Positions 15,978-43,112 of a stretch of DNA of 64,000 nucleotides are shown here, piece by piece. Made by a program: the position numbers and the translations under genes. This DNA comes from Minisyncoccia bacterium (GTDB taxonomy: Bacteria; Patescibacteriota; Minisyncoccia; Phycocordibacterales; UBA918), in contig JBKBPM010000001.1 in assembly GCA_046293175.1 (NCBI GenBank), forward strand, positions 593,408-657,407. Reading direction: 5' to 3'. The stretch's first letter is position 1. Every line of letters begins with the position of its first letter. The notes beneath the pieces are model-generated. The model saw only the letters and a list, made by a program, of their open reading frames with translations. It searched no databases and was not told where the DNA came from.

Positions 15978-15979
15978 AA

Positions 15980-26264: not shown

Positions 26265-26562
26265 GCAATAATCATGACACCTCCCTACCTGCCCGGCAAT
26301 AGGCTGTGGTGCACACTGATTTTACTGTCTACAACTGTACGCCAGCACCGAGGTTCATATCAGCCTACGTTGAATTCGGACTGATGAGACCAAGAGATAT
26401 ATGCCCATAGCGTATACATGCCGAGCAATAAAACAGTGATACCGAAAAGTATCAGAAGCGTCTTAAAAAAATCTTGAATGGCTTGCTCATGTATTCCATA
26501 ATTTTAACTTAAATAAAGCCATCTATATAGTAGGACAAAAAAGTGACCGAGTAATCGGTGAC

Positions 26563-26616
26563 TTTTTTGTCTGGTTACTGCTCTCAGCAGGTATGCAATT
26601 TCTCGGAATAGTACCT
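26563..26616. repeat. Left copy of a roughly 51-54 bp direct repeat that brackets the accessory island
   Basis: ttttttgtctggttactgctctcagcaggtatgcaatttctcggaatagtacct versus 42666-42716 tttttgttctggctactgctctcagcaggtatgccttttcagaatagacct (about 85% identity). In each copy it begins in the T-tract of a different terminator hairpin. A shared 13-mer gacgcgtctcgtg lies at 26819-26831 and 42730-42742. Confidence 0.6.
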
Positions 26617-26888
26617 ATGATTTCTACCGAAACTTAAGGAGTCTAGGACACCCCCTTTAGAGAGTTCGTGCCCATGACTCGTTCTTAAAATGCTTTGGAA
26701 AATATAACGATTTTAAGAGTCTCGATAGCTCTCACTTGATTGCTGGCCGTCTCGTGTTAGAACCGTGGCCGGTCAAGCCCTGCTTACTCCGTTTGGCTTC
26801 GTTTTAGGTCCTTGGAACGACGCGTCTCGTGTGCTTCAAAAAGTGACAAAAGTGACACAGGGAGGCACCTGAAAGTTACACGCTACTG

Positions 26889-27296
26889 TCACCTTCTCCT
26901 GTAGTGCGTTCGTACTCCCGTGGTTAACAAAATGAACCCAACGATCGAAAAAGAGACTATATAAACAATCGTTGCAATGATTGGAAAGTAATCGTTTGCA
27001 TATAGTTCAGGCCCTCCGATCAGGCCAATGACGAATAGGATCCCGAAATAGAAATAGTTGTAGAGAACGCTTCCTAGTACTCGCCACCTGCCTGTGATTA
27101 AGTACCTTGCTATGGCGTATATCAAAATAGCAATCAGGGCACCTAGTGTTGCTAACCAGTGCTGCACTAAGAACGAAAGAAGTATCTCCCAGAAAACACG
27201 GTAGGTATGGATAGTCGCTTCCGCAACACCGTTCATGAGTGTCTCCAAGGATTCCTTTACGAAGTCAGGACCAAGCGGTGTGGAAGTTGAGTTCAT
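26889..27296 (-). CDS. Small polytopic membrane protein; third gene of the CBASS-like operon
   Basis: 135 aa with three or four TM helices. Its start is 3 nt after the SLATT-like stop. Confidence 0.5.
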   Translation of the reverse strand: MNSTSTPLGPDFVKESLETLMNGVAEATIHTYRVFWEILLSFLVQHWLATLGALIAILIYAIARYLITGRWRVLGSVLYNYFYFGILFVIGLIGGPELYANDYFPIIATIVYIVSFSIVGFILLTTGVRTHYRRR

Positions 27297-27298
27297 TT

Positions 27299-27793
27299 CT
27301 ATGCAATCGTTTCTTCTCGCTTAGCGAGCTTCTTCACTGCCTTTTGGTAAGCCCATTCCTCTGTTGGAGGAGTAAGTAGGATGAGCTGGTTATATGCCTC
27401 AGAAAGCTTGCACACTTCCTTATACAATTCCTGCTCCGAGTGGAAGGACGCGAATGACTCATGTAGCGCACGCGCCCTATGCTTCACAACTGTAAAGCTT
27501 TTGGCCGAGTTCAAGTTCTCGTAGTACGACTTATGCGGACTTACAATACTGCTGGTCGCCGTAACAACGGCAGAGACAACGGTGAGCCAGCCCCACCATG
27601 CGGGTATCGCCTGCCCTACAACGAGCAAGCCAGAGAGTGAAGCGATGATCGCGGGAACGACCTCAAACCAGAAAGCCATTGTCTTGCTCCTCGACGCGAG
27701 TATGTGGTGCGCTTCAGCAGTGTGTCGCGCATTGTCCTCGATCGTCTGACATTCCTTTTTTAAGTTATCAATATTATTCATAAGTTGATCCAA
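27299..27793 (-). CDS. SLATT-like 2TM effector protein
   Basis: 164 aa with an N-terminal helix, two adjacent TM helices (AFWFEVVPAIIASLSGLLVVG / WWGWLTVVSAVVTATSSIV), and a C-terminal helical region. It overlaps the nucleotidyltransferase stop by 20 nt, which suggests translational coupling. Confidence 0.55.
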   Translation of the reverse strand: MDQLMNNIDNLKKECQTIEDNARHTAEAHHILASRSKTMAFWFEVVPAIIASLSGLLVVGQAIPAWWGWLTVVSAVVTATSSIVSPHKSYYENLNSAKSFTVVKHRARALHESFASFHSEQELYKEVCKLSEAYNQLILLTPPTEEWAYQKAVKKLAKREETIA

Positions 27794-29126
27794 TTGGTAC
27801 TAATACTTTGCCGATAGCAACGCATACATTGTCCTTCACGACGTAACACTCGACGTAGTGTTCGCCATGGTAGAGCGTGCTCTCTGTCTTCTCCTGTGAT
27901 CCCGCATCGGGAGTAATCTCACCACGCAAGCCGTCGGCTTTCTTGGCTTCTTCTCCGAAATTGCGGACTTTCCAAAAAATGCGGTACGGACCAGGCACAT
28001 TTATCTTCTGCACGCGGAACTTCAGCTTCTTTCCTTTCAGCAAAGGAAAACGCTTCTGAAGGAAGTCGGTGAGCCAGCCCGTCCGAAAGCCGTTTTGGGT
28101 AACTTCTGCGTCTATGGATACTTCGTACCCAGAAAATAACCTGGTCGGTATGCCATATTTGCTCTCAAGGAATTCTTCTTTCGCAGATGGATACTCGCGC
28201 GTTAGCTGTGCGATCTTGTCTGGAATCGGATCCACCGCAATCGCACGATCAGCCACCGTCGGGAAGTCTGCACCAAATATCTTCTGCCACTCGAGAGATG
28301 CGTCACGCAACTTATCCGCAGCTTCGTACTCGATTGCCTTCTCAGCACGAGAAACAGCCGAATCGACCCGCGAAGCCCATGCGTCTCCGAGGCTGATCGA
28401 CTGGCTAGAGCCGAGCGAGTGGACTAAACCATGACGCTTTGACCGAAGATACTCGAAGAATCCGAGCACGAGTTGTGGGTACCGCTCGTTCACTTGGTTG
28501 TTGTATCTGTCGCGCAGGTAATCAATGACGAGAATCTCAAGAATGTATGACTTGAGCGGAACGCCACAATTCCTCACCCACGCCTTAAGCATACGAACGA
28601 GCGACTTCGTGTGCTTCGTCTGCGTACTTGAATCATGAATCGCCTTGATCTCTGCGCTCGGGTTCCATATGTCCCACGATCCGCCCTTCTCGGTATTTGG
28701 AATGCGATATTCGCCTGAGGGCAGTCGCCATGCGGGAAGAAGCTCGACAGTATGCGTGCTTTCCGCGAAGCTAATGAGGATCACCTTGCCCCACGCCTTT
28801 ATGCCTTCTGTCGTACTGAATCGGTCTTTCAAAATACCTCGCACTTCCTGAAGTAGTTGGGACTGCTTGTTTCCGCTGAGAGCGTCGAACCGCGCAAACT
28901 CAGAGTCTGGCATCTTGAAGAGCAGATCAATGTCTTTCGGGGGACGAATATTCGTGTGCTTACCATACGAACCGATGAGGAGCTTCGTGCTTCCATCGTA
29001 GGTAGTCGTCGGGTAGTACTTGCCATGCAAAGTTTCAGAGACGTTCTTGATCTTCGTCTCAGCGTCCGCCTTTTGTGGGTCGGTTAGCTTGATGTTCTCT
29101 AAAAATTTGCGAAAGGCGGAATCCAT
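27774..29126 (-). CDS. cGAS/DncV-like (SMODS/CD-NTase) nucleotidyltransferase with a C-terminal extension of about 150 aa
   Basis: Pol-beta NTase motif GSYGKHTNIRPPKDIDLLF (GS…DxD) with the third acidic residue near …HTVELLP…. A helical domain follows, then an unassigned C-terminal domain. Confidence 0.7.
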   Translation of the reverse strand: MDSAFRKFLENIKLTDPQKADAETKIKNVSETLHGKYYPTTTYDGSTKLLIGSYGKHTNIRPPKDIDLLFKMPDSEFARFDALSGNKQSQLLQEVRGILKDRFSTTEGIKAWGKVILISFAESTHTVELLPAWRLPSGEYRIPNTEKGGSWDIWNPSAEIKAIHDSSTQTKHTKSLVRMLKAWVRNCGVPLKSYILEILVIDYLRDRYNNQVNERYPQLVLGFFEYLRSKRHGLVHSLGSSQSISLGDAWASRVDSAVSRAEKAIEYEAADKLRDASLEWQKIFGADFPTVADRAIAVDPIPDKIAQLTREYPSAKEEFLESKYGIPTRLFSGYEVSIDAEVTQNGFRTGWLTDFLQKRFPLLKGKKLKFRVQKINVPGPYRIFWKVRNFGEEAKKADGLRGEITPDAGSQEKTESTLYHGEHYVECYVVKDNVCVAIGKVLVPIGSTYE

Positions 29127-29192
29127 AATGTAATTCCTCTATTTTATTACATTTGACGAGGAGGAGCGAATGTCCTGAAAAAAGTCTATAAT

Positions 29193-29603
29193 ATGGGCAT
29201 GGAGTATCGACTCGAAGCAAAACCTACGGTCCTCGAGAAGGGGCAAAAGTATCGAATAATTCAGATCACTGATGTCGCGCATCACACAGCAAAGAAAACT
29301 CCTACCCCTTCCGTAGGCAAGAAAATAGAGAAAACGCCTGACGCAACGCCTGGACGAATCTACAGGCCTACGGATTTAGGTGTAGTACTTGATCCTAAAG
29401 CGTATATCCTCAAAATGCTCGGGGAGGACCCAGATTTCCAAAAGCTTGTGCGGGACGAGGCAGCAAAAGGGGTAAAGGTTGTCCTTGCCTTTCCCAAGGA
29501 CGGTGTCCCGGCAGAGTACGGAAAAGACACGATTGAGTTTCTGAAAAGTAAGAACGGCAAGCGTGTGCTTCGAGGGCTTGCCAAGGAAAAGCGTGAGGAA
29601 TAA
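29193..29603 (+). CDS. Hypothetical Lys-rich protein, divergent from the CBASS-like operon
   Basis: 136 aa with no recognisable domain. Candidate regulator or phage protein. Confidence 0.35.
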   Translation: MGMEYRLEAKPTVLEKGQKYRIIQITDVAHHTAKKTPTPSVGKKIEKTPDATPGRIYRPTDLGVVLDPKAYILKMLGEDPDFQKLVRDEAAKGVKVVLAFPKDGVPAEYGKDTIEFLKSKNGKRVLRGLAKEKREE

Positions 29604-29771
29604 AATAGTGACATAGCGTAGTAAAAAGTAGAGTAGCGTATCGCCTTCTGGCCATGCCTATTCCGCGCAAGAAGTGAGTTGAGGTTATCGAGCCTCTTCC
29701 TCGTTTCGTGTGTGGAATAGGCCTTTTCTATATCCATACATCCTTACAAATCGTAACGGTTTTAAAGGAGT

Positions 29772-31055
29772 ATGAAAAAACTCTCATGGACGACGGTCCA
29801 AAAACGTGTAAACGATCTCATTCCCCAGGAGATCAATCCCCGCAAGATCAGCGACAAGCAGATGTCCGATCTCAAGCGGAGCCTTAAGAAGTTCAATCTG
29901 GTGGAGATCCCTGCCGTGGATTATGACGGCACCATTCTCGCAGGACACCAGCGCATCAAGGCGCTCCAGCTTCTTGAGCGCGGAGACGAGACAATCGACA
30001 TCCGTGTGCCGAATCGCAAGCTTACGGAAAAGGAAGCCAAGGAATACCTGATCGGCTCTAACAAGCTCGGCGGAGACTGGGACTTCGACATCCTGAAGTC
30101 CTTTGAACTCGACACGCTCTCATTCGCTGGATTCGATGATATGGAGCTTGCGAAGTTCTGGGACAACGATAACGAGACCAAAGAGGATTCGTTCGATATC
30201 GAGAAGGAGCTGAAGAAGATAACCGATCCCAAGACAAAGCTCGGCGACATCATCCATCTCGGCAAGCATAAGATCCTCTGCGGGGACTCGACTGACCCAA
30301 AGAACCTTGCGCGCCTCCTCGGTGAGGAGCGAGCCAGCATGATTTACTCAGATCCCGTCTACAACATCTCTATCGACTACGACGGAGGCATCGGCGGAAA
30401 GAAGGACTACGGAGGAAACGTGAACGACACGCGTACCTACGAGGAGTACAAGGGGTTCATCAGAGATAGTCTCACAGCCGCACTCGCGGTTTCCTCTCCC
30501 AATACTCACGTCTTCTACTACTGCGATCAGGTCTACATCGGCTTGATTCAAGAAATCTACCGCTCGCTTGGCATCGCGAACAAGCGCGTATGCCTGTGGC
30601 TCAAGAACTCGCAGAATCCCGTACCGAAGGTGTACTGCAACAAGGCATACGAACCTGCCGTATACGGCACGCGCGGAAAGCCATACCTTGCCGAAGCTGT
30701 AAGCGATCTCAACGAAGTGATGAATAAGGAGTTCACCACCGGCAACGAGCTGGTGACGCAGGTCGATGACTTCCTTGAAATCTGGACGGCAAAGCGACTT
30801 GCCGCGAAAGACTACAAGCACGCTACGTCAAAGCCGATCACGCTCCACGAGAAAGCGATCAAGCGTTGCACGAAGCCGAATGACATTATTCTCGACAGTT
30901 TCCTCGGTTCGGGCAGCACCCTCTTGGCCGGAGAACAGCTCGGACGACGCGTATACGGTTGTGAGCTTGAGCCAAGGTTCTGCGACCTGATCGCGGCTCG
31001 CTTCGAGGCGCTTACTGGAATTAAGCCGGTCATCGAACGCCATGAAGAAAAATAA
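29772..31055 (+). CDS. ParB-like N-terminal domain fused to an N6/N4 DNA methyltransferase (phage-type orphan MTase)
   Basis: ParB_N region (…EIPAVDYDGTILAGHQRIKALQL…). MTase motif IV-like IYSDPVY. Motif I region TSKPITLHEKAIKRCTKPNDIILDSFLGSGSTLLAG. Confidence 0.8.
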   Translation: MKKLSWTTVQKRVNDLIPQEINPRKISDKQMSDLKRSLKKFNLVEIPAVDYDGTILAGHQRIKALQLLERGDETIDIRVPNRKLTEKEAKEYLIGSNKLGGDWDFDILKSFELDTLSFAGFDDMELAKFWDNDNETKEDSFDIEKELKKITDPKTKLGDIIHLGKHKILCGDSTDPKNLARLLGEERASMIYSDPVYNISIDYDGGIGGKKDYGGNVNDTRTYEEYKGFIRDSLTAALAVSSPNTHVFYYCDQVYIGLIQEIYRSLGIANKRVCLWLKNSQNPVPKVYCNKAYEPAVYGTRGKPYLAEAVSDLNEVMNKEFTTGNELVTQVDDFLEIWTAKRLAAKDYKHATSKPITLHEKAIKRCTKPNDIILDSFLGSGSTLLAGEQLGRRVYGCELEPRFCDLIAARFEALTGIKPVIERHEEK

Positions 31056-31515
31056 ATTCCAGAAGCAGTTTTTAGACGAACTGCGGAAAGTCCCGATTGT
31101 ACAGGTCGCGTGCGAGAAGACAGGACTTTCCCGCAACAGCGTATACCGTTGGCGAAACGAAGATGCTGAGTTCCGCAAGGCAATGGAAGAGGCCATCGCC
31201 GAGGGCGAGGAGCTCGTTAACGACATGAGCGAAGGACAGCTCCTCACGCTTATCAAGGAGAAGAATTGGTCAGCGATCAGCTTCTGGCTCCGCAAGCGTA
31301 ATCCGAAGTTTAAGGACCGCATTGAGGTGGAAGTCGCGCCGAAACAGGAAGAACTTACGCCCGAACAGGAAGAGACGGTGCGCGAGGCTCTTCGCCTTGC
31401 CTCTATGGATCCCATTACCAATCTAAAAGAAGCCAATCATGGAACACAGCCCGCTACCGCCTCATCTGATGGAAACGATGATGAAGGATCGGAAAGTACG
31501 AACGGCAATCACTAA
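31042..31515 (+). CDS. Phage terminase small subunit-like HTH protein
   Basis: HTH (…ACEKTGLSRNSVYRWRNEDAEFRKA…) with an acidic C-terminus. It lies directly upstream of, and overlaps, the TerL gene. Confidence 0.5.
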   Translation: MKKNKFQKQFLDELRKVPIVQVACEKTGLSRNSVYRWRNEDAEFRKAMEEAIAEGEELVNDMSEGQLLTLIKEKNWSAISFWLRKRNPKFKDRIEVEVAPKQEELTPEQEETVREALRLASMDPITNLKEANHGTQPATASSDGNDDEGSESTNGNH

Positions 31516-32911
31516 GGAAAGCCACTGGTACTTCTTCCACTTCTACTTTGCCCACTATGTGAAGTATCCGACAGCCCCGTTCCAGAAGGAACTTATGGGA
31601 CTTTCGGAACGTGAGGATGTGAAGAATCTCGTCGTGGTTGCCTTTCGTGGATCGGCAAAGTCCACGATCTTCACCATGTCCTATCCGATCTGGGCAATCC
31701 TTGGAAAGCAACAAAAGAAGTTCATCGTCATCCTCTCACAGACTCAGGCTCAGGCTAAGCAGCACATGATGAACCTGCGACGCGAGCTTGAAAATAATAC
31801 GCTTCTCAAAAGTGACCTAGGATCGTTCCAAGAAGAGCGAAACGAATGGGGCGCGACATCCCTTGTGTTCGGAAGACATGGTGCGCGCATCACAGCTGTT
31901 TCGACCGAACAGAGCGTTCGCGGTCTGCGCCATAACCAGCACCGCCCCGATCTGATCATCGGAGACGACCTAGAAGACATCGCTTCGACCAAAACACGCG
32001 AGGGTCGCAACAAGACGTATGAGTGGCTCACGGGAGAAGTGATTCCTGCTGGAGACCGAAACACGAGGCTCATTGTGATTGGAAACCTCCTGCATGAGGA
32101 CTCGCTCATCATGCGGCTCAAGGAAGACATTACTGACAAGCGCATTGATGGAATGTTCCGAGCGTACCCACTTATGGAGGGGCAGAGCATCCTGTGGCCG
32201 GGAAAGTACCCAACCATGGAGGATATCGAAGAGGAACAGAGAAAAGCGGCGAACGACTATGCGTGGCAGCGAGAATATCTCCTCAATATTGTTCCAGCCG
32301 AAGACCAGGTTATTGATCCCGCATGGATTCAGTACTACGACGAAATTCCGCCTCGTGTAAGGGTCTTCAAAAACGACACCTACATGACGAATCTGGAAGT
32401 ACGTATCGGTGTCGATCTTGCGATCTCAAAGAGGGACACCGCCGACTATACCGCGATGATCCCAGCTCTCCTTTACGAGGCGAAAAAAGGATACGACATC
32501 TATATTCTTCCGAAGATCATCAACAAGCGACTTTCCTTCCCTGAGACGGTTGAGACATGCAAGATCATACACAACTCGTATAAGGATGTTCCGCACTGGA
32601 ATGGTCCTGTGTTCGTGATCGAGGACGTGGCGTATCAGAGTGCGCTACCTCAACAGCTCAAGGCGGAAGGGCTTAGGCAGATACACACCGTAAAGCCAGG
32701 AAATACCGATAAGCGTGCGCGCCTCATGCTTACCGCGAACTTGATTAAGACTGGTGTCGTGAAGTTTCCGCGACAAGGAGCGGAGCAGCTAATCCAGCAG
32801 ATCGTACACTTCGGTGTCGAGAAGCATGATGACCTCGCGGATGCTTTCTCTGCCCTTGTCTTGGACGCACTTGCCGACCCGCCAAGTACGTTTCGTATTT
32901 TCTTTATTTAA
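31469..32911 (+). CDS. Phage terminase large subunit
   Basis: ATPase Walker A-like AFRGSAKST and Walker B LIIGDDLED. C-terminal RNaseH-like nuclease motifs (…VDLAISKRDTADYTAM…; …HDDLADA…). The start is uncertain between 31439 and 31481. Confidence 0.8.
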   Translation: METMMKDRKVRTAITKESHWYFFHFYFAHYVKYPTAPFQKELMGLSEREDVKNLVVVAFRGSAKSTIFTMSYPIWAILGKQQKKFIVILSQTQAQAKQHMMNLRRELENNTLLKSDLGSFQEERNEWGATSLVFGRHGARITAVSTEQSVRGLRHNQHRPDLIIGDDLEDIASTKTREGRNKTYEWLTGEVIPAGDRNTRLIVIGNLLHEDSLIMRLKEDITDKRIDGMFRAYPLMEGQSILWPGKYPTMEDIEEEQRKAANDYAWQREYLLNIVPAEDQVIDPAWIQYYDEIPPRVRVFKNDTYMTNLEVRIGVDLAISKRDTADYTAMIPALLYEAKKGYDIYILPKIINKRLSFPETVETCKIIHNSYKDVPHWNGPVFVIEDVAYQSALPQQLKAEGLRQIHTVKPGNTDKRARLMLTANLIKTGVVKFPRQGAEQLIQQIVHFGVEKHDDLADAFSALVLDALADPPSTFRIFFI

Positions 32912-34325: not shown

Positions 34326-34326
34326 G

Positions 34327-36511: not shown

Positions 36512-36531
36512 ATTTTTACTTTTACTTGTAA

Positions 36532-37287
36532 TTACTCCACAATGACAACCCCTTCGGCAGCGGGATTAAGATGATCGTGGTAATTCCATGTGCCTGGTTT
36601 GTCGAACGTATACATGTATTGATCTCCAGTCTTGAACTGATCAAATGTAGGAAGAATGCTGTGTTCCGGATGTTCATTTGACGCCACCCACATTTCTTTT
36701 GTACTTTCATTCACGAAGTGCACCATTGTACCGAGTGGTACTGAAACTTCTTTCGGTTCAAAGCCACTGTCGGTATAGCGAATAGTTGCCATAGCGGAAT
36801 TTCCCATCATGTGTATAGCGTCGGCATTTCCCGTATTTGTGGTGATTGAAGTAGGTACGGGAGCACCTGTTGCGACATACACGGATAGAGGCATTCCATC
36901 AACCTCGAGAGGTTGATCAAGGTCATTAAAGACCTTGTCATCACCCGCATCTTCGTACGCCATCACTATTAGTTCCTCACCGCCCTCGTAGAAGTCACCG
37001 AGGGGGATTGCAATACCATTATGAGTTCCTGTCGTAAGGTATTGGCTAATCTCAACGATTTGACCGAGACGACCATTATCAATGGAGCGGACCGCGAGGA
37101 ACCCTGGCTTTAGGAGTGTGACCGAATCAACAGTTACTACAGTGGTAGCGTTCTGCGCTGAAACCACTAGTTCTCCCTCTGCATTAGTTGCCATTTTTGG
37201 TGCTTCGCTGTGGGGTTGCTTAGTCGTGAGGAAAAAGACGATTCCTATACCGACTACCACCACGACTCCACTAATAATCGCTCTCAT
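36532..37287 (-). CDS. Secreted/membrane-anchored cupredoxin-like domain protein
   Basis: N-terminal TM with a C-terminal plastocyanin/EfeO-like cupredoxin fold signature (…GTWNYHDHLNPAAEGVVIV). Confidence 0.45.
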   Translation of the reverse strand: MRAIISGVVVVVGIGIVFFLTTKQPHSEAPKMATNAEGELVVSAQNATTVVTVDSVTLLKPGFLAVRSIDNGRLGQIVEISQYLTTGTHNGIAIPLGDFYEGGEELIVMAYEDAGDDKVFNDLDQPLEVDGMPLSVYVATGAPVPTSITTNTGNADAIHMMGNSAMATIRYTDSGFEPKEVSVPLGTMVHFVNESTKEMWVASNEHPEHSILPTFDQFKTGDQYMYTFDKPGTWNYHDHLNPAAEGVVIVE

Positions 37288-37292
37288 ATCAA

Positions 37293-38861
37293 TTATTCTG
37301 TTACAGCAAACTCAAACATCATTCCTGCTTCGAGATGTTCAGCAATGTGACAATGCGCCATCCATTCGCCGGGGTTTGTGGTGTCGAGTAGGATATCGAC
37401 ATACTGTCCAGCTGGTACCATCACCGTGTCTTTCCAAACCAAGTTGTCGTTTGTTGTTCCATTTTCATTGACTACCAAGAATCGCTGACCGTGGAAGTGA
37501 ATTGGGTGTTGCATTGGATGAGCAGAATTTGCGTCATTAGTGATACGGACCTTCACCTTGTCACCAGATTTGAAGCTCCACGCAATATCCATATTCGTCT
37601 GCCCGGTTGCCTTGTCGGTGATCTTCCACTTTGTCATATCCTTGGTCGCCATCTGGTTCATCATGGCCATGTCAGTATCCTCCCATTCAATGCCATCTTT
37701 ACTCACCGTATTAGCCATCATTCCTCCCATCATTGATCCATCGGGCATCCTGTGTCCACCCATGCCTCCACTCATACCGCCCATCATGTCGATGGTGAGA
37801 TTGAGTTCTTTATCGACTGGTTTGGCGAGGTATTCCCGATACGGGTCAATGCTTGCTTTCGCAACTTCGTTGGTGCGAAGCGTGCCAAAGATATCTCCGT
37901 AGTATGGAGACGCAACCCCTCCCGAGACAGTAACTTTGCCAAGTTCATACGTTTTTTCAGGCGTGCTATGGAGAAGTGCATACGTTCCTTCGTTAGCAAA
38001 TAGCACTTCCACAACTACTCGCTCAGATGGTCCGAGAATCACTGAGTCTTTCCATTCTTCTCGCTCCGTCGCCCCAGCATCTCCGCCGACTAATTTCAGC
38101 TTCGCACCCTTAATACTGAAGTTGAATGGTCGCGCGTTTGCGGCGTTTGTGAGATAGAAGCGAATCACTTCACCCTCTGTTGCTGTGAGCTCGTAATCAG
38201 TCTCACCATTTACGAGCATCACGTTTCCGTAACGACCCATGAGGGTACGATCTGCTTCCTTTTTGCTCAGATTTATCTTTCCGTTCTCAATGAGAATGTC
38301 GTCCAGAATAAGTGGTACCTCGCGGTTTACTTCATTCCAATACTTCTCATCGGTAGCTACCACAAGATAGTTCCCGTATAAGCCGAGCTCCTGTTCCAAG
38401 TCTTCACGAACATGCGGGTGGTACCAGTACATTCCGGCGTCAGGGAATTTCAGTTTGTACGAGAACGTCTCACCCGGTTTCATCTCCTCTTGAGTCGACT
38501 GTGAACCATCAAACTCATTGTCCATGCGCACGCCGTGCGAGTGGAGAAGTGTGTTCATGTCGGTACCATTCTTGAAGTTGATGGTCACCTCTGCACCTTG
38601 CGGTACTTTGATTAATGGTCCGGGTATTGAGCCGTTGTATGCGAGCATTTTGTATGACACGCCATTGATGTTTTTTTCGACGTAGCTGGCAGTGAGGTCA
38701 TAGGTGTCACCATTTTTAAGTTCAACAGTCTCTGATGCTTTTGCAGGTTCAGCTTTTGTAAGGGCAGTGCTCGCACCAGGTATAGTTCCTCCTTTTGATA
38801 GCAGAATGCCACCAACGACAAGAACTACGCCGAGCACTACCGCAATAAGTGTTTTATTCAT
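37293..38861 (-). CDS. Multicopper oxidase (CueO/laccase-like) with a Met/Gly-rich insert
   Basis: Copper ligand motifs WYHPH, HPIHFHG, and HCHIAEHLEAGMM. Met-rich segment MMGGMSGGMGGHRMPDGSMMGGMM. Confidence 0.85.
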   Translation of the reverse strand: MNKTLIAVVLGVVLVVGGILLSKGGTIPGASTALTKAEPAKASETVELKNGDTYDLTASYVEKNINGVSYKMLAYNGSIPGPLIKVPQGAEVTINFKNGTDMNTLLHSHGVRMDNEFDGSQSTQEEMKPGETFSYKLKFPDAGMYWYHPHVREDLEQELGLYGNYLVVATDEKYWNEVNREVPLILDDILIENGKINLSKKEADRTLMGRYGNVMLVNGETDYELTATEGEVIRFYLTNAANARPFNFSIKGAKLKLVGGDAGATEREEWKDSVILGPSERVVVEVLFANEGTYALLHSTPEKTYELGKVTVSGGVASPYYGDIFGTLRTNEVAKASIDPYREYLAKPVDKELNLTIDMMGGMSGGMGGHRMPDGSMMGGMMANTVSKDGIEWEDTDMAMMNQMATKDMTKWKITDKATGQTNMDIAWSFKSGDKVKVRITNDANSAHPMQHPIHFHGQRFLVVNENGTTNDNLVWKDTVMVPAGQYVDILLDTTNPGEWMAHCHIAEHLEAGMMFEFAVTE

Positions 38862-38876
38862 ACATAGTTGATAACG

Positions 38877-40019
38877 CTAATTAATAATTTTACTTCCCCC
38901 ACTCCAGATACTGATACCATTCGGCATATCGCCAACAGGGATCCTAGAAATTTCTCTGTTAGTATCCGTATCAATAATTGTTACGTCATCGCCGAGCAAA
39001 TTAGTAACATACGCGCGAGCTCCGTCTTCCGATACGACAATTCCGTGTGGCGCAGAACCGGCAGTAATAGTTTTGTCGACTATTTTTCGTCCGATATCTA
39101 TCCGATACACAAGATTTCCTGTCGGTTGATCGAAGTAGTAGCCTTGGTCAGCCACGTACAGGTATCGTGAGTCTGGGGTCGGGTAGATTTGCACAGGTCC
39201 ACGAGATCCTTCGGGAAGGGTTATGACCCCTTGTTCATTATTTTTCCGGTTGAGCCATACGATTTGTTTGGTGTCATACACTGACGAAAATGCGTATATA
39301 CCATCTTGGGTGACGGCTGTTTGGACACCAGCTCCAGGCAATGTGATGTTTCGTACGATATTGGTCTCTGTATCGAGGACAGCCATCCCTTTTCCATCAA
39401 TAAGCGCGATGAATACTTCCGTGCCATCCGGTGTCACTCGAAGTCCGTGTGGCCCACTTGCTTCACCGAGCGCAATTTCGCGTATAATTCTGCGACCCTC
39501 AACGTCTATCACGTAGACCTTGCCCTTTTCTTGTGAGGTCACGTATGCGGTTTTTGCGTCAGGAGAGGTGACGACGTGTGCAAGGTGGCTGTCGGTAGCG
39601 ACGGGAATTGAGTAAACAATTGTGTCAGTTACTGGGTCGATGATAAACAGCTTGTCGGAATTCTGTCCATGACCCATATCCGGCATTGCATCATCTTCCA
39701 TGTCCATGCCTTCCTCGACGTTTGCCGTCACCAGCACCTTCTTCCCGTCCGGAGCTACCTGCACATTATGTGCCATGTAGCGGACTGTTTCTCCGTCAAC
39801 CTTTTCAGACAAGTCGATGGTTGCAATAACTTTTGTACTCTTAGAATCAATTACAGAGACCTTTCCTTCGCCCTCGAGCGCAACGTACACTTTTTCACTC
39901 TGACTACTGACAGAAGTAGTTATTTCTTGAGGCGTATTTATATCCCTAGCTGACAGAGTCCAAAAAGCACCTCCAATAAGAACAATTGCTGCAATTGTGC
40001 CTAATACGTATTTATTCAT
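38877..40019 (-). CDS. YVTN-family beta-propeller repeat protein
   Basis: Repeated …AYVT…G.V.VID… units of about 40 residues (YVALEGEGKVSVID; AYVTSQEKGKVYVID; AYVTNLLGDDVTIID). Confidence 0.7.
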   Translation of the reverse strand: MNKYVLGTIAAIVLIGGAFWTLSARDINTPQEITTSVSSQSEKVYVALEGEGKVSVIDSKSTKVIATIDLSEKVDGETVRYMAHNVQVAPDGKKVLVTANVEEGMDMEDDAMPDMGHGQNSDKLFIIDPVTDTIVYSIPVATDSHLAHVVTSPDAKTAYVTSQEKGKVYVIDVEGRRIIREIALGEASGPHGLRVTPDGTEVFIALIDGKGMAVLDTETNIVRNITLPGAGVQTAVTQDGIYAFSSVYDTKQIVWLNRKNNEQGVITLPEGSRGPVQIYPTPDSRYLYVADQGYYFDQPTGNLVYRIDIGRKIVDKTITAGSAPHGIVVSEDGARAYVTNLLGDDVTIIDTDTNREISRIPVGDMPNGISIWSGGSKIIN

Positions 40020-40449
40020 AATGTAATTCGATCTTATCTCCATCCTTCATCTCATAATTTTCATACTCTGTGTTTGGTTCGCCATTCACCGTCATAGTCA
40101 CATTCTGTCCGAACTCTCGAAAGTCCTTACCCCATACCGCAAAGAATTTTCCAAGACGAGTATCTTCGCGGGTCACTCTGGCTGGGTATTCGAGATGTAT
40201 GATCGGAGCATCATCGTGGGTATGCATTGGCTGATGGACGGCACCAATGCCGACGTTTTGAGGTATCTCAATCTGTTCACCTTTTACGAATATCTTGAGT
40301 TCAGGATGGGTATGGATTCCACGCATGGAAAGAATATTTGAGTCTCCTGATGCTACTTGTTTTGTCTGATTTGCTTTTGCCCACCATATGAGTCCTATTG
40401 CCAACACAAGGATGGCAATAATGACAATAGTGAACGAATGTTTTTTCAT
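40012..40449 (-). CDS. Membrane-anchored His-rich hypothetical protein (putative periplasmic metal-binding)
   Basis: N-terminal TM with HTHPE / HQPMHTHDD motifs. Confidence 0.4.
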   Translation of the reverse strand: MKKHSFTIVIIAILVLAIGLIWWAKANQTKQVASGDSNILSMRGIHTHPELKIFVKGEQIEIPQNVGIGAVHQPMHTHDDAPIIHLEYPARVTREDTRLGKFFAVWGKDFREFGQNVTMTVNGEPNTEYENYEMKDGDKIELHYE

Positions 40450-40976
40450 AATATGTCACAGGTTAGTGGTTTGGTAATAGTGCGTACGAGAAGAAACGTG
40501 GTGTATCCGAGAATGAGTACGCCAAGGATGCCAATCTCTTGCCCTCGAAGTGGTAAATATGTGAGCGCGCCAATGCCACCCACAACTCCTAGGAATGAGG
40601 TGAGGATGATCGATCCACAGGCTGCACAGCCAACACTGAACATCCCAAAGAGTGCACCAACGGATGTGGTAGCAACGCTTCCACGTGTCAGGAAGTATTT
40701 TTGACGTCGATAGAGGTAGAACATCAGTGCGATATTTATTCCAACGAGGATCGAGATTGTTACCGTGGTCAGGGCTGAAAGTAGTGAGAAATTTGTTACA
40801 AGTGAACCAAGAAGGCTTAGTGTCACCGAGAGTTTCCCAAGTACCGATACACCCTCACTTGCCCACAGAAGCGTGAGAAGTGTGCTGTTTGGTAACAGGA
40901 TTGCAACAGCTAGCATGAGCGCACTCACGGCTAGCGCGAGAATGATGTATCCAATGTTTCTGCGTACGAACGTCAT
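40446..40976 (-). CDS. Polytopic membrane protein with an intramembrane CAAC motif. Possible thiol-disulfide oxidoreductase partner of the adjacent DsbA-like protein.
   Basis: 176 aa with about five TM helices and SVGCAACGS inside a TM segment. Translationally coupled to neighbouring genes. Confidence 0.4.
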   Translation of the reverse strand: MTFVRRNIGYIILALAVSALMLAVAILLPNSTLLTLLWASEGVSVLGKLSVTLSLLGSLVTNFSLLSALTTVTISILVGINIALMFYLYRRQKYFLTRGSVATTSVGALFGMFSVGCAACGSIILTSFLGVVGGIGALTYLPLRGQEIGILGVLILGYTTFLLVRTITKPLTCDIL

Positions 40977-40979
40977 GAG

Positions 40980-41747
40980 TTAAGAACTTTTAAGGGCGTT
41001 TTCGATGAGCTGTTTGACTGCTTCATATGGCTGAGCCCCATTGATTGGGAACTTGGTGCCGTCCGGCGCAACAAAGATGCTCCACGGTGTACCACGACCG
41101 CCGGTTGCTACCGCATTCTCAAGGTCGTTCGCCACATGCTCAGCATAGGTGCCACTACTCAAGCATTCATTGAACTTCGACACATCAATGCCAATATACT
41201 GTGCAATTTTCGGAAGTTCTGCTGGGTCAAGGCGGTCGTTTGATGGGGTGATTTCGTAGAGGCGATCTGCATATTTCCAGAACGTATCATTACCACCCTG
41301 TGCACCGGCGCATTCGAGTGCTTCGGCTTCTTTCCGGGCTTTTGGGTGCAGTTGATCAAGCGGAAAGTGACGATAGACCCAGGCAACTTTTCCGGTATCT
41401 CCATACTCGTCTATGACCTGCTTCATAGTCTCGTGGAAGCGTTTACAAAACGGGCATTCAGTATCCGAATACTCGACTATCTTAATAGGTGCATCAGGAT
41501 TACCGCGAATATGATCATCTGAAGCAACTGGTTTCATATTCTCAAGCGCTTTACCTGCATCTTGCTCGGCAACTTGCTGTGCTTGAGGTGCCACAGCAGT
41601 TGGTGACGGTGTAGGATTGCCTTTGAGACCGAAGAATACTGCTCCGGCGATAAGTCCTCCCGCTATAACAATTGCTAACGGTATCCCAAGTGCTTGTTTT
41701 TGGTTTTTTACTATTGGTTGTGATGGTTCTTGTGTAGTTTCATTCAT
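40980..41747 (-). CDS. DsbA-family thioredoxin-like protein (CPFC)
   Basis: N-terminal TM and a Trx fold with a CPFC active site (…VEYSDTECPFCKRFH…). Confidence 0.75.
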   Translation of the reverse strand: MNETTQEPSQPIVKNQKQALGIPLAIVIAGGLIAGAVFFGLKGNPTPSPTAVAPQAQQVAEQDAGKALENMKPVASDDHIRGNPDAPIKIVEYSDTECPFCKRFHETMKQVIDEYGDTGKVAWVYRHFPLDQLHPKARKEAEALECAGAQGGNDTFWKYADRLYEITPSNDRLDPAELPKIAQYIGIDVSKFNECLSSGTYAEHVANDLENAVATGGRGTPWSIFVAPDGTKFPINGAQPYEAVKQLIENALKSS

Positions 41748-41823
41748 GTGAATAGAAGTTAGTAGGTAATGCCATAACGGCAAAAAAGCAGAGTGCAGAA
41801 CACTCGCTCACATGAATGAGACG

Positions 41824-42267
41824 TTAGAACGTCTTTGGGTGGAGAATGCCTCGTGCGAACGCTAAACGAAGCGGATCGTATGTGCGTATGTCTGGATGTT
41901 CTCGGGCGTATTGCCTGAAGCGTATTGAAAGAAGATTTGTGTCGAGACGAGGTGCTGCCAGGAATCCTGCAAGAGCAAAAGAAGATGCAACCGCAAGTAC
42001 GATGAGTAGAACGAGGTCTTGGAAACCTTGTGGAATACCCACAAGGGTACTCTTCCAAAGCTCCATATGGTCACTTACCCCAGCATCGCAACAGTTCTTA
42101 AGCGAAACCTCGTGTGACGTATGCGCAATATGACCAGACCCATTTCCCGCATGAACAGGAGTCGCATGGATAAAGCTGATACAGAGAAAGCCGACGATCA
42201 ATGAGATCAGAACAGACCCGCCGAGGACGGTCTTGAGTCGATTTGCTTGTGGGAAGGCGAGCTTCAT
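41824..42267 (-). CDS. Membrane protein with His/Cys-rich loops (putative copper-binding)
   Basis: Two TM helices with HATPVHAGNGSGHIAHTSHE and NCCD motifs. Confidence 0.4.
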   Translation of the reverse strand: MKLAFPQANRLKTVLGGSVLISLIVGFLCISFIHATPVHAGNGSGHIAHTSHEVSLKNCCDAGVSDHMELWKSTLVGIPQGFQDLVLLIVLAVASSFALAGFLAAPRLDTNLLSIRFRQYAREHPDIRTYDPLRLAFARGILHPKTF

Positions 42268-42376
42268 GACAAGTCCATTTTAACAGAAAATTGAACTCCT
42301 GCACACAACATTATCAGCCTACAAGCAAGGGGGCATTATAATATACTCAGATGTTTATTAGCTTTTAAAAATAAAT

Positions 42377-42637
42377 ATGAATACTCTTTCGCCAGCAAGA
42401 TCTGGGATCGCACTATCAGGAACACTTATTGTCGCCTTCGTCCTGTGCGCTATCGCACAGGCAATCTTACCAAGCGCACAATTTTCCCATATGTGGCTCT
42501 CTTTGTTTACAGCTGCACCTTTGGGATCTTTAATTGCTTGGATAGAGGGAATAATAGCAAGTGTGGTGGTCGGCTTTATTTTAGGCTACTGTTTCGCTCA
42601 TTGTTATAACTGGAGCGCAAAACACGGAATCAAATAG
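42377..42637 (+). CDS. Small two-TM membrane protein
   Basis: 86 aa. Followed by terminator hairpin aaaaatcgccccatgaggggcgattttt. Confidence 0.4.
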   Translation: MNTLSPARSGIALSGTLIVAFVLCAIAQAILPSAQFSHMWLSLFTAAPLGSLIAWIEGIIASVVVGFILGYCFAHCYNWSAKHGIK

Positions 42638-42644
42638 TCAACAA

Positions 42645-42672
42645 AAATCGCCCCATGAGGGGCGATTTTTGT
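42645..42672. terminator. Bidirectional rho-independent terminator
   Basis: AAAAATCGCCCC-atga-GGGGCGATTTTT. Confidence 0.7.
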
Positions 42673-42716
42673 TCTGGCTACTGCTCTCAGCAGGTATGCC
42701 TTTTCAGAATAGACCT
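42666..42716. repeat. Right copy of the direct repeat that brackets the island (pairs with 26563-26616)
   Basis: See the left-copy entry. It lies 47-97 nt 3' of tRNA-Gln. Confidence 0.6.
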
Positions 42717-42762
42717 CTGACGGACTATCGACGCGTCTCGTGCGCGATAACCTATCACGAGT

Positions 42763-42836
42763 TGGCTGCCCGACAAGGACTCGAACCTCGATACCTTGGA
42801 CCAAAACCAAGTGTCCTACCATTAGACGATCGGGCA
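42763..42836 (-). tRNA. tRNA-Gln (anticodon UUG), CCA encoded
   Basis: Manual fold of TGCCCGA-TC-GTCT-AATGGTA-GGAC-A-CTTGG-TTTTGGT-CCAAG-GTATC-CGAGG-TTCGAGT-CCTTG-TCGGGCA-G-CCA. Confidence 0.8.
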
Positions 42837-43112
42837 AGTGGCTCCATTTATACCATATATCGTGCCAGAAATCATCCTTAATATTGAGGAAGATTTTCTC
42901 ACCGTAATTCGAAGCGTTCTGTGGTAATTATCTGCAATATTTTGTGCGGTTTGTTTTAATATTATGCTTTTTGTAGTAAATAAACTGGGGCTGAAAATCA
43001 TTTTTTTCTAGGATGTTGCTCCAGAATTTAATATCCTTAACTACATCTTTTTTATGGTTTTCATGGATATATAAACTATAGACAAGTCTATCAAGATTGC
43101 TGTTTAAGGATT

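What the first reader, a model, noticed from the sequence alone, without database searches (positions are those of the whole stretch)
26265..42850. A roughly 16.4 kb accessory island 3' of tRNA-Gln, flanked by direct repeats
Between the pilus cluster (ends 26264) and tRNA-Gln/pyrG lies a block whose content is entirely accessory. On the left, a 625-bp gene-free gap (26265-26888) lies between the pilus cluster and the island's first gene, and on the right tRNA-Gln sits at 42763-42836. Roughly 51-54 bp direct repeats at 26563-26616 and 42666-42716, plus a shared 13-mer gacgcgtctcgtg further in, bracket it. The left copy appears split by a roughly 200-bp insertion. This looks like attL/attR of an integrated element, or a composite of two elements, in what is otherwise a compact genome.
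Basis: partly seen in the sequence, partly recalled or inferred. Interest (0 to 1): 0.65.

Follow-up and report, generated by a model that had tools for sequence, protein, structure and literature searches.

The report
Mobile island at tRNA-Gln in CPR bacterium

Summary
The repeats are real and the block is a genuine mobile element, but the repeats are not its att sites. The window comes from a Patescibacteria (CPR) genome.

**The element** spans 26742-42764 (16,023 bp). It carries:
- a large serine recombinase (LSR);
- a capsid-less ParB-methylase/TerS/TerL module;
- a type I CBASS;
- a copper-resistance cluster;
- at its tRNA-proximal end, a structured RNA gene ending in the conserved motif.

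**Mobility.** The same element (96.7-99.8% identical) sits at tRNA-Gln genes of other hosts whose housekeeping genes are only 65-73% identical. In one host (L242) the left flank is entirely different.

**Junctions**, mapped to the nucleotide:
- Right: the 3' end of tRNA-Gln (...CAGC|CAA...).
- Left: the end of a conserved 36-nt tRNA-mimicking arm (...GGCCAGC|AA...). This arm occurs in six further contigs, each joined to different DNA.
- Contig L177 joins tRNA-Gln directly to the long-form RNA that lies 16 kb away in the window. This is an unoccupied configuration.

**The left repeat** belongs to a relic of an earlier occupant: an RNA, a terminator and a truncated gene.

**The motif** marks more than 120 metagenome contigs and is absent from Rfam. 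LSR genes lie downstream of it in 30 of 32 cases.

The parts
42763..42836 (-). Host tRNA-Gln(UUG). Its 3' end (...GGGCAGC|CAA) is the right junction of the element (attL: host B arm + element P' arm).
   Evidence: ARAGORN; Rfam tRNA 58.1 bits. In an alignment of 11 contigs, identity starts at TTGGCTG (42762-42768) and each host's own tRNA sequence follows.
26742..42764 (.). The integrated element proper, 16,023 bp: LSR-driven, capsid-less, with two cargo slots.
   Evidence: A single blastn HSP to L242 (win 26660-42837, 96.7%) with unrelated left flank genes. It is 99.0-99.8% identical to the visible right-hand parts in L229, L230, L231, L236 and L237, whose available host flanks are 65-73% identical. 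Tetranucleotide distance to the flanks is 0.189, against 0.068 +/- 0.006 for flank windows.
42640..42761 (-). Element-borne 'short-form' RNA unit (P' arm).
   Evidence: Nearly identical in all 11 contigs carrying the element. Hairpin fold z = -2.0 with 9 closing pairs. Motif statistics. No Rfam family.
42377..42637 (+). DUF5676 2TM protein, the first cargo gene.
   Evidence: Pfam PF18926. The exact protein occurs in 45 blocks of public contigs in different host contexts.
34327..42267 (-). Cargo slot 2, the copper/redox cluster: unknown 147 aa, DsbA-like thioredoxin, two unknowns, beta-propeller, multicopper oxidase, DUF7282-cupredoxin and P-type ATPase.
   Evidence: Pfam. Syntenic, 94-99.8% identical copies in L229-L237. 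Mosaic replacement in L228 and in L232/L234/L235.
33006..34325 (+). Large serine recombinase (439 aa), the presumed integrase.
   Evidence: Pfam Resolvase + Recombinase + Zn_ribbon_recom. PHROG_95 integrase, 1.7e-62. Best NCBIfam hit is CcrB, 118.6 bits against a cutoff of 900. At least 8000 homologues at E<=1e-50.
29199..32911 (+). Conserved core module: unknown 134 aa, ParB-N6/N4 DNA methylase, TerS-like and TerL.
   Evidence: Pfam. PHROG_498 and PHROG_620, PHROG_4044, and PHROG_38 at 6.6e-82. The same order occurs in L157, L205, L206, L219, L240-L243 and L246.
26889..29126 (-). Cargo slot 1: type I CBASS (CD-NTase 27774-29126, 2TM effector 27299-27781) plus an unknown 135 aa.
   Evidence: Pfam SMODS + AGS_C. 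PADLOC cyclase 4.6e-118 and 2TM effector 1.6e-17. Replaced by ThsB-TIR/S24 genes in L243 and by TIR genes in L241.
26742..26888 (-). Left terminal region of the element (P arm).
   Evidence: The 36-mer is found in L098, L143, L175, L196, L198 and L241 (twice), each followed by different sequence directly after CCAGC. win 26742-26880 is 90.6% identical to the left end of L243. Partly conserved in L241.
26534..26741 (-). Relic RNA unit of an earlier occupant, lying outside the present element.
   Evidence: Aligns with long forms that follow a full tRNA-Gln in L117, L126, L177 and L183. Covariation: 93% of cells paired against 39-55% in slid controls, and 19 compensatory pairs. L177 joins the tRNA directly to this RNA.
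26367..26500 (-). Frameshifted and truncated 5' remnant of a membrane-protein gene that follows this RNA unit intact in L095.
   Evidence: Alignment of window, L095 and L131; tblastx.
25032..26264 (-). PilB-like T2SSE ATPase, the first host gene to the left.
   Evidence: Pfam T2SSE 1.1e-114. Tetranucleotide composition of the pilus block 19589-26264 matches the flanks, but that block is part of the reference set. Absent from the left flank of the same element in L242.

Best explanation
Region 26742-42764 is one integrative mobile element of a large, apparently undescribed family in Patescibacteria.

**Inferred mechanism.** Its large serine recombinase recombines two sites:
- an element site (attP), made of a 36-nt arm that mimics the T-arm/acceptor end of tRNA-Gln, the core ...CAGC|, and the start of an element-borne RNA gene;
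- the 3' end of the chromosomal tRNA-Gln gene (attB).

**Consequences of integration.**
- The tRNA stays intact.
- The element's own structured RNA, with its conserved motif and terminator, ends up directly behind the tRNA. There it can be transcribed from the tRNA promoter.
- Whatever previously followed the tRNA is pushed 16 kb away. Here that is the RNA unit and first gene of an older element, now mostly deleted.

**Element layout.** A conserved core (unknown 134 aa, ParB-methylase, TerS, TerL, LSR) sits between two exchangeable cargo slots. In the window these hold a type I CBASS on the left and a copper-resistance cluster on the right. No capsid, portal or tail genes are present. Transfer therefore most likely uses capsids of a helper phage, in the manner of a satellite.

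**Status of each step.**
- Shown by sequence comparison: the element boundaries, its presence in different hosts and flanks, cargo swapping, RNA structure conservation, and the association of the LSR with the RNA motif.
- Inferred: catalysis by the LSR, the exact crossover dinucleotide, co-transcription of the RNA with the tRNA, and packaging by a helper phage.
For: **Host.** pyrG and its neighbours match Patescibacteria MAGs.

**The same element in other hosts.**
- L242 carries every gene from the 135-aa unknown to DUF5676 at 96.7% identity over 16.2 kb. Its left flank is RNR/cobalamin genes instead of the pilus operon.
- L229, L230, L231, L236 and L237 are 99.0-99.8% identical over the part visible, which ranges from 8.6 kb (win 34210-42837, L230) to 10.5 kb (win 32377-42837, L231). 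Where host flanks are available (L228, L229, L231), pyrG/FtsX/RF1 are 65-73% identical.
- The exact DUF5676 protein occurs in 45 blocks of contigs, in at least four different right-hand contexts.

**Right junction.** Eleven contigs are identical through terminator, motif and hairpin up to CACGAG|TTGGCTG. They then diverge inside each host's own tRNA-Gln, which has a CTG or a TTG anticodon.

**Left junction.**
- High identity to L242 begins exactly at GCTGGCC, position 26742.
- The 36-mer arm recurs in 6 other contigs (8 copies in all, counting the window). Each copy is joined to different sequence right after CCAGC.

**Unoccupied configuration.** L177 has tRNA-Gln (90% to win 42765-42837) abutting the long-form RNA (91% to win 26554-26749), with an 8-nt overlap of the two matches. 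The same arrangement is seen in L117, L126 and L183.

**LSR.**
- It has the complete domain set.
- In loci fetched by the RNA motif alone, LSR homologues lie downstream of the motif in 30 of 32 cases, and 29 of those are convergent.
- 15 of 34 loci with at least 5 kb of downstream sequence have one within 5 kb. None of 39 has one within 3 kb upstream.

**Cargo exchange.** Seen in L243, L241, L240, L228, L157, L206 and L212.

**RNA.**
- The long-range helix has 5 of 9 pairs compensatory.
- 0 of 500 shuffles reach the observed covariation.
- 94% of 36 distinct short forms fold into a closed hairpin, mean z -3.1.
- The motif stem shows U-A in 104 cases, C-G in 12, and no mismatched combination.

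**Composition.** The island deviates from the flanks.
Against: - No excised circle or empty site from the same strain was available. The only other contig of this strain (L001) shows the integrated state.
- No recombination directionality factor, replication gene or repressor was recognised in the window element.
- The P arm and the tRNA end share only about 17 of 29 positions, by my own count from the sequences. Recognition of both by one protein is therefore inferred.
- Some pairs of contigs share their right flank from the motif onward but differ in the RNA body. Recombination therefore also happens at the motif. I attribute this to homologous exchange between motif copies in tandem arrays, but did not test that.
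- The tetranucleotide null windows are part of the reference set, so the contrast is somewhat inflated.
- The helper-phage idea rests only on the absence of structural genes.
Confidence: 0.85

Rival explanations
1. One reading: the two ~50-bp motif copies are attL and attR. Integration happened by crossover inside the conserved motif, so the element runs from motif to motif (about 26585-42690).
For: - The copies are in direct orientation and bracket the block.
- The motif is a ~45-50-bp conserved block, symmetric about a small dyad, which is the size of a serine-recombinase site.
- About ten contig pairs share their right flank starting at -32 to 0 of the motif but have different RNA bodies. 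Other pairs share the left side and diverge 0-10 nt after the motif.
Against: - The same element in 11 contigs stays identical well beyond the motif, through the whole RNA hairpin, up to the tRNA 3' end.
- Against L242, high identity continues 145 nt beyond the left motif, to 26742. It stops at the end of the 36-mer arm.
- That arm is joined to unrelated sequences at one fixed nucleotide in 8 copies.
- L177 joins the tRNA to the long-form RNA, not one motif half to the other.
Confidence: 0.05
2. The two repeats are paralogous native small-RNA genes of the host. The DNA between them is a variable chromosomal region filled piecemeal, not one mobile unit.
For: - The RNA is structured and conserved.
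- It follows tRNA-Gln in syntenic relatives L117 and L183, together with DsbA/ATPase genes.
- The sub-blocks differ in composition: GC is 0.52 for methylase-TerL, 0.40 for the LSR and 0.47 for the copper cluster.
Against: - The whole 16 kb moves as one block at 96.7% identity into a genome with a different left flank.
- The RNA unit travels with the cargo at about 99-100% identity across hosts whose core genes are 65-73% identical.
- The closest genome, L002, has tRNA-Gln without the RNA.
- Only about 5 of 35 pyrG-linked tRNA-Gln genes have the RNA.
- The same kind of unit, with copper cargo and an LSR, also sits behind a tRNA-Ser.
Confidence: 0.04
3. The element is a decaying prophage remnant that lost its structural genes and is no longer mobile. 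It is not a functional capsid-less, satellite-like island.
For: Only TerS/TerL of the virion module are present. No replication or lysis genes were recognised. Relics and truncated LSRs occur at this hotspot (L100, L197, L230).
Against: - The same capsid-less architecture, with intact ORFs, recurs in more than 10 relatives with LSRs 48-92% identical. These include IMG/VR contigs where the space next to TerL/LSR holds defence cargo rather than structural genes.
- Copies 96.7-99.8% identical in hosts 65-73% identical imply recent successful transfer.
Confidence: 0.12

Closest known systems
Staphylococcal/enterococcal cassette chromosome elements (SCCmec and relatives) moved by Ccr large serine recombinases
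   Same: - An LSR-driven island inserts at the 3' end of a conserved housekeeping gene without inactivating it.
- It carries exchangeable resistance cargo.
- Elements accumulate in tandem arrays, with relics of earlier occupants at the same site.
- CcrB is the best NCBIfam match of the LSR.
   Different: - The target is a tRNA-Gln gene, not rlmH.
- The match to CcrB is 118.6 bits against an equivalog cutoff of 900, so the LSR is not a Ccr.
- There is one recombinase gene, not a ccrAB pair.
- The element also carries a TerS/TerL module and a terminal structured RNA gene.
- The host is a CPR bacterium.
tRNA/tmRNA-targeting genomic islands and prophages with tyrosine integrases
   Same: Insertion at the 3' end of a tRNA gene, an element site that resembles the tRNA 3' part, restoration of an intact tRNA, and tandem accretion at a hotspot.
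   Different: - No tyrosine integrase domain is present in the element.
- The tRNA-like arm is only about 60% like the tRNA, rather than an exact duplicate of tens of bases.
- No true direct repeat is generated.
Serine-integrase temperate phages (phiC31, Bxb1, A118, TP901-1 type)
   Same: The same three-domain recombinase architecture, with the recombinase gene close to one element end in many relatives. In L082, L090, L123 and L201 the stop codon lies 45-55 nt from the RNA motif.
   Different: No capsid, portal, tail, lysis or replication genes. These phages are generally described as targeting protein-coding genes, whereas this family sits next to tRNA-Gln, Asp, Glu and Ser genes.
Phage satellites (PICI-type islands)
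   Same: Size of about 16 kb, an integrase, packaging genes without structural genes, and accessory defence cargo.
   Different: - It carries a large terminase subunit as well as a small one.
- No primase/replication module or master repressor was recognised in the window copy. S24 repressor-like genes occur in L206, L243 and L246.
- No helper phage is known.

Membership tests
Large-serine-recombinase integrative element | Recombinase with Resolvase catalytic domain, Recombinase domain and zinc-ribbon domain | tested here: met
   Pfam PF00239, PF07508 and PF13408; PHROG_95 integrase, 1.7e-62.
Large-serine-recombinase integrative element | Defined junctions with only a short shared core, no long target duplication | tested here: met
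   Right junction ...GGGCAGC|CAACTCG, left junction ...GGCCAGC|AATCAAG. The shared core is about CAGC plus one or two A.
Large-serine-recombinase integrative element | Same element at the same kind of site in independent genomes; unoccupied site exists | tested here: met
   L242, L229-L237 and L243. Unoccupied configuration in L177, L117, L126 and L183.
Large-serine-recombinase integrative element | Recombinase-dependent integration/excision; directionality factor | not testable with these tools
   No reads or assays were available. No RDF candidate was recognised.
SCC-type cassette chromosome element | Ccr recombinase (NCBIfam equivalog) and insertion in rlmH | tested here: not met
   CcrB scores 118.6 bits against a cutoff of 900. 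The target is tRNA-Gln.
Classical tRNA-targeting island (tyrosine integrase) | Tyrosine recombinase gene next to the tRNA and exact duplication of the tRNA 3' end | tested here: not met
   No Phage_integrase domain in any ORF of 26.9-42.6 kb. The left arm matches the tRNA end at about 17 of 29 positions, counted from the sequences.
Prophage | Virion structural genes (portal, capsid, tail) and lysis genes | tested here: not met
   Only TerS and TerL hit head-and-packaging PHROGs among the left-hand ORFs scanned (26889-34325). The remaining ORFs were scanned against Pfam only and gave no virion domain; they are defence, copper or unknown genes.
Phage satellite (PICI-like) | Integrase + packaging-redirecting gene(s), no structural genes, size 10-20 kb | tested here: met
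   LSR, TerS/TerL, 16.0 kb.
Phage satellite (PICI-like) | Helper-phage-dependent induction and packaging; replication module | not testable with these tools
   No helper phage is known. No primase or replication domain was found.
Type I CBASS | CD-NTase plus a transmembrane effector in one operon | tested here: met
   PADLOC cyclase PDLC00796 at 4.6e-118 and 2TM effector PDLC00712 at 1.6e-17. Pfam SMODS + AGS_C.
Any Rfam RNA family (for the RNA unit) | Match at or near gathering score | tested here: not met
   Only tRNA hits in the window and in L126, L153 and L177. Other matches lie far below gathering score and fall on the terminators.

The most novel reading that the evidence does not exclude
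These elements are the first recognised satellite-like, capsid-less TerS/TerL/serine-recombinase islands of CPR bacteria. Their terminal structured RNA would be an integration-state device. It lacks its own upstream tRNA in the free form, and it becomes fused behind the host tRNA-Gln promoter only after integration. It could then act as a signal or regulator, for example of excision, packaging or exclusion of rival elements at the same site. Alternatively it could act as a replacement 3' maturation and termination module for the tRNA.
Probability: 0.3. Interest if true: 0.8.

Novelty: new variant of a known kind. Interest (0 to 1): 0.62.

Why it matters
- **Gene flow in CPR bacteria.** Patescibacteria have very small genomes, and little is known about how they exchange genes. 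Here a 16-kb element carrying anti-phage defence and copper resistance is found 96.7-99.8% identical in hosts whose core genes are only 65-73% identical. That is direct evidence for recent transfer across deep lineages.
- **Scale.** The family is large. There are at least 8000 recombinase homologues at E<=1e-50, and more than 120 contigs carry the RNA motif.
- **Practical use.** The insertion site and the element arm are defined to the nucleotide. This gives testable attB/attP pairs for a new clade of serine integrases, potentially useful as genetic tools for organisms that currently have almost none.
- **A new RNA.** The conserved structured RNA at the element end is absent from Rfam, and its function is open.

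Tried and rejected
1. **Crossover inside the conserved motif.** Nucleotide-level junctions later placed the crossover at the tRNA end and the 36-mer arm.
2. **The RNA as a native host tRNA-Gln trailer.** Rejected because it travels with the cargo at about 99-100% identity. It is also missing from the closest genome, L002.
3. **L002 as an empty site.** Uninformative. It has different genes after tRNA-Gln, and synteny resumes only at window ~16.4 kb.
4. **The left tRNA-like stretch as a decayed host tRNA fragment.** Rejected because the same 'degenerate' 36-mer is conserved in unrelated contigs.
5. **Searching viral contigs for a free attP.** One contig has the motif next to tRNA-Gln. The 25 contigs with LSR relatives have none.
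6. **Exact-protein look-ups.** The 135-aa unknown, the methylase and TerL returned only the window's own strain; the 439-aa LSR was not on record at all.
7. **MAFFT/RNAalifold on 36 short forms.** It recovers only the motif hairpin. A per-sequence folding test was used instead.
8. **Rfam.** Nothing beyond tRNA.
9. **Literature searches.** They found no description of the family.
10. **Relatives with several kb between TerL and the LSR.** I suspected these gaps held capsid genes. The one checked (L212) holds a diversity-generating retroelement and a type III restriction system.

Full report
**1. The observation.**
- ARAGORN places tRNA-Gln(UUG) at 42763-42836 on the minus strand.
- No ORF of 80 aa or more lies in 26265-26888.
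- The repeat finder returns a 40-nt pair at 88% identity, 26563-26602 against 42666-42705.
- The 27-mer TCTGGYTACTGCTCTCAGCAGGTATGC occurs exactly twice in the window, with none expected in shuffles.
- An exact 14-mer, CGACGCGTCTCGTG, lies at 26818 and at 42729.
- Each repeat copy is preceded by a different A-tract/hairpin/T-tract terminator.

**2. Gene content and host.** pyrG and its neighbours match Patescibacteria/Paceibacteria MAGs, the best at 94% amino-acid identity.

From left to right, the block encodes:
- an unknown 135-aa protein;
- a 2TM effector and a CD-NTase, which together form a type I CBASS (PADLOC 1.6e-17 and 4.6e-118);
- an unknown 134-aa protein;
- a ParB-N6/N4 methylase;
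- TerS;
- TerL (PHROG_38, 6.6e-82);
- a large serine recombinase;
- a minus-strand copper cluster: P-type ATPase, DUF7282-cupredoxin, multicopper oxidase, beta-propeller, two unknowns, a DsbA-like protein and an unknown 147-aa protein;
- a small DUF5676 membrane protein.

No capsid, portal, tail, lysis or tyrosine-integrase gene is present.

**3. The repeat is part of a widespread conserved unit.**
- The core of the repeat, read on the minus strand as GCATACCTGCTGAGAGCAGTA, turned up in distant Patescibacteria genomes downstream of tRNA-Gln.
One viral contig also matched.
- Of the instances, 72 have a tRNA within 260 nt upstream on the same strand: 35 tRNA-Gln(CUG), 35 tRNA-Gln(UUG) and 2 tRNA-Ser.
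- Between the tRNA and the conserved 3' block lies a variable body. In the 'short form', which includes the window's right copy, it is one 37-51-nt hairpin. In the 'long form', which includes the window's left copy, it is a ~145-nt multi-helix domain.

**4. The unit is a structured RNA.**
- On 12 long forms, RNAalifold predicts a long-range helix whose two strands lie about 90 nt apart and enclose two hairpin domains.
- 93% of cells pair, against 39-55% when the partners are slid.
- 19 pairs show changes on both sides, against 1-6 in the slid controls.
- No shuffle of 500 reaches the observed values. Five of the nine pairs of the long-range helix are compensatory.
- Of 36 distinct short forms of very different sequence, 94% fold into a hairpin closed at both ends. 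Mean z is -3.1, with 6.9 closing pairs against 2.3 in shuffles.
- In the motif stem, U-A occurs 104 times and C-G 12 times. There is no mismatched combination, although the search pattern allowed them.
- Rfam has no family for it.

**5. Association with the recombinase.**
- tblastn of the window's proteins against all fetched loci found LSR homologues (32-100% identical) in 39 loci, about 34 of which had been fetched by the RNA motif alone.
- Among the 32 matches of 90 aa or more in motif-fetched loci, the LSR gene lies downstream of the motif in 30, and 29 of those are convergent. In four (L082, L090, L123, L201) the stop codon is 45-55 nt from the motif.
- Elsewhere, 0.15-12 kb of cargo lies between them. 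In the loci whose cargo was inspected (window, L153, L157), it is transcribed in the tRNA's direction.
- 15 of 34 loci with at least 5 kb of downstream sequence have an LSR within 5 kb. None of 39 has one within 3 kb upstream.
- IMG/VR holds 25 contigs with LSR relatives and the same methylase/TerS/TerL/LSR module. None has the Gln-type motif. Several have tRNA-Asp, tRNA-Glu or tRNA-Ser genes convergent on the LSR.
- The family as a whole therefore sits next to tRNA genes. It is large, with at least 8000 proteins at E<=1e-50.

**6. A wrong turn.** Three things led me at first to place the crossover inside the motif. The motif is a ~45-50-bp conserved block around a small dyad. Some contig pairs share only what lies to the right of it. 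Others share only what lies to the left. The junction mapping below overturned this. I now attribute the motif-edge breakpoints to exchange between motif copies in tandem arrays, but did not test that.

**7. The right junction.**
- The exact 86-aa DUF5676 protein is on record in 45 blocks of public contigs.
- Ten retrieved loci carry the same DUF5676/copper block; an LSR is visible in seven. The right-hand contexts differ:
  - pyrG/FtsX/RF1 in L228, L229 and L231;
  - TspO/ECF sigma/peptidase M3 in L230;
  - a HEPN gene in L232;
  - CYTH/RNR/thymidylate kinase in L233.
- All eleven sequences, window included, are virtually identical from DUF5676 through the terminator, the motif and the whole RNA hairpin, up to ...CACGAG|TTGGCTG. 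They then diverge inside the acceptor stem of each host's own tRNA-Gln. Three contigs have only tRNA-like fragments there.
- The element part is 99.0-99.8% identical to L229, L230, L231, L236 and L237. The host flanks are 65-73% identical.
- The RNA unit is therefore element DNA, and the right junction is the 3' end of the tRNA.

**8. The left junction.**
- A cluster member of the LSR gave access to contig L242.
- L242 contains every gene of the window element, from the 135-aa unknown to DUF5676. It lies between class II RNR/cobalamin genes on the left and a tRNA-Gln/pyrG context on the right (L231 is the same contig).
- blastn gives one HSP, window 26660-42837 against L242 3654-19832, at 96.7%. 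High identity begins exactly at GCTGGCC, window 26742. To the left of that point the two genomes carry different relic RNA units.
- The 36 nt ending there, read on the minus strand as CTTGACCGGCCACGGTTCTAACACGAGACGGCCAGC, resemble a tRNA T-arm and acceptor end. They recur in L098, L143, L175, L196, L198 and twice in L241. Each copy is followed, directly after CCAGC, by a different sequence.
- L243 has the same left terminal 139 nt, then ThsB-TIR and S24 genes instead of CBASS, then 99.2% identity from window 29467 onward. L241 likewise has TIR cargo to the left of the core module.
- The left slot is therefore a cargo slot, and the element ends at 26742.

**9. The unoccupied configuration.**
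- In contig L177, a tRNA-Gln 90% identical to the window's is followed without interruption by a long-form RNA 91% identical to window 26554-26749. The two matches overlap by 8 nt at GGCAGCAG.
- L117, L126 and L183 show the same arrangement. L117 and L183 are also syntenic with the window on the pyrG side.
- This is what the window locus would look like without the 16-kb element.
- The long-form RNA at 26534-26741 and the frameshifted start of a membrane-protein gene at about 26367-26500 are the remains of an earlier occupant of the site. That gene is intact in L095.
- Tandem arrangements of this kind are seen elsewhere. In L118, an ATPase 3' end is followed by an arm and RNA unit and then another copper cluster. 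Contig Ga0172380_10000125 has two units 44 kb apart.

**10. Mechanism, and which steps are shown or inferred.**

Shown by comparison:
- the boundaries;
- mobility between hosts;
- the cargo slots;
- the conserved terminal arm;
- the terminal RNA.

Inferred:
- The LSR, the only recombinase in the element, recombines attP with attB. Here attP is the 36-mer arm, the core CAGC and the start of the RNA gene, and attB is the tRNA-Gln 3' end.
- After integration the RNA is transcribed from the tRNA promoter.
- The TerS/TerL module packages the element into capsids of a helper phage.

On the last point, relatives consistently lack structural genes. The DNA next to TerL or the LSR holds OLD nuclease, ATPases, type III restriction systems, Hsp70/AAA genes, a diversity-generating retroelement or metal-resistance genes.

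**11. Composition.**
- The island's tetranucleotide distance to the flanks is 0.189, against 0.068 +/- 0.006 for flank windows of the same size.
- The methylase-TerL part has GC 0.52, the LSR 0.40, and the copper cluster 0.47 with a smaller but still outlying distance.
- The pilus cluster is indistinguishable from the flanks, but it is itself part of the reference set.
- The null windows are also part of the reference, so the contrast is somewhat overstated.

**12. Comparison with known systems.**
- The closest analogue in logic is the SCC family. There, LSR-driven cassettes insert at the 3' end of a conserved gene, carry resistance cargo and pile up in tandem.
- CcrB is the best NCBIfam hit of the LSR, but at 118.6 bits against a cutoff of 900. 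The target also differs, so this is not a member.
- It resembles tRNA-targeting islands in site choice but has no tyrosine integrase and no exact tRNA duplication.
- It resembles serine-integrase phages in its enzyme but has no virion genes.
- It resembles phage satellites in size and content, but helper dependence cannot be tested here.
- Two full-text searches and one paper found no description of this family or of the RNA.

**13. Verdict.**
- The finding is real and is more specific than proposed.
- It is a precisely delimited, recently transferred LSR element of a large Patescibacteria family, inserted at the tRNA-Gln 3' end next to a relic of an earlier one.
- The repeats are the conserved 3' ends of the elements' own structured RNA, not the att scars.
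- I rate it a new variant of a known kind of system, of moderate to high interest.

Noticed in passing
window 26748-26756, 26823-26831, 42734-42742 (all minus strand): The 9-mer CACGAGACG occurs four times in 64 kb against 0.45 expected. Three copies lie at the element's ends. In the reconstructed attP they would sit about 80 and 6 nt before the crossover and about 21 nt after it. They may be protein-binding boxes.
   Followed up: partly
window 43188-43506 (minus strand), between pyrG and tRNA-Gln: A degenerate remnant of a gene that is intact at the same position in relatives: the 245-aa ORF at L002 5974-6711, and genes of 265-310 aa in L228 and L231. No ORF of 80 aa or more survives on that strand in the window.
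   Followed up: partly
L153 12342-12545 and L161 10-213: The same kind of RNA unit (hairpin, CUAUUC box, motif, terminator), followed by a copper/DsbA cargo of 11-12 kb and a convergent LSR, sits behind a tRNA-Ser instead of tRNA-Gln. A partial duplicate of the tRNA-Ser 5' part lies upstream.
   Followed up: partly
L110, L124, L131 (upstream of their long-form RNA units): A second family of tRNA-like arms, AGTCAAGGGCGACYGAGACGGTTCGAATCCnnTTGCGGCAGCA. It is distinct from the 36-mer of the window element and is presumably the attP arm of another recombinase clade.
   Followed up: no
L032 12800-13110: A small GIY-YIG-type ORF lies just upstream of tRNA-Gln and is flanked by a duplicated copy of the tRNA's 5' part. 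It looks like a separate homing-type insertion.
   Followed up: no
L021 12890-13030; also L007, L010, L011, L018: Partial duplicates of the tRNA-Gln 3' half lie downstream of the intact gene in several distant Patescibacteria. This suggests that other element families also use this tRNA as a hotspot.
   Followed up: no
L212 3613-9667: In an IMG/VR relative, the space between TerL and the LSR holds a diversity-generating retroelement (bAvd + reverse transcriptase) and a type III restriction-modification pair.
   Followed up: partly
L234-L237, L243 (contig ends): Several assemblies break within or just beyond the tRNA/RNA unit or the 36-mer arm. This is expected if the element sits in more than one context in the sampled populations.
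   Followed up: no
window 15000-18000: A local GC rise to 0.51-0.55 against a window mean of 0.47. Its tetranucleotide composition is not unusual. Synteny with L002 resumes here, at window ~15.7-16.4 kb.
   Followed up: no
window 34327-36426: The P-type ATPase ORF reads as 699 aa from a TTG start. In near-identical copies, gene callers give a 665-aa ATPase plus an overlapping 65-aa DUF2933 protein, so the window ORF probably includes that small upstream gene's region.
   Followed up: no
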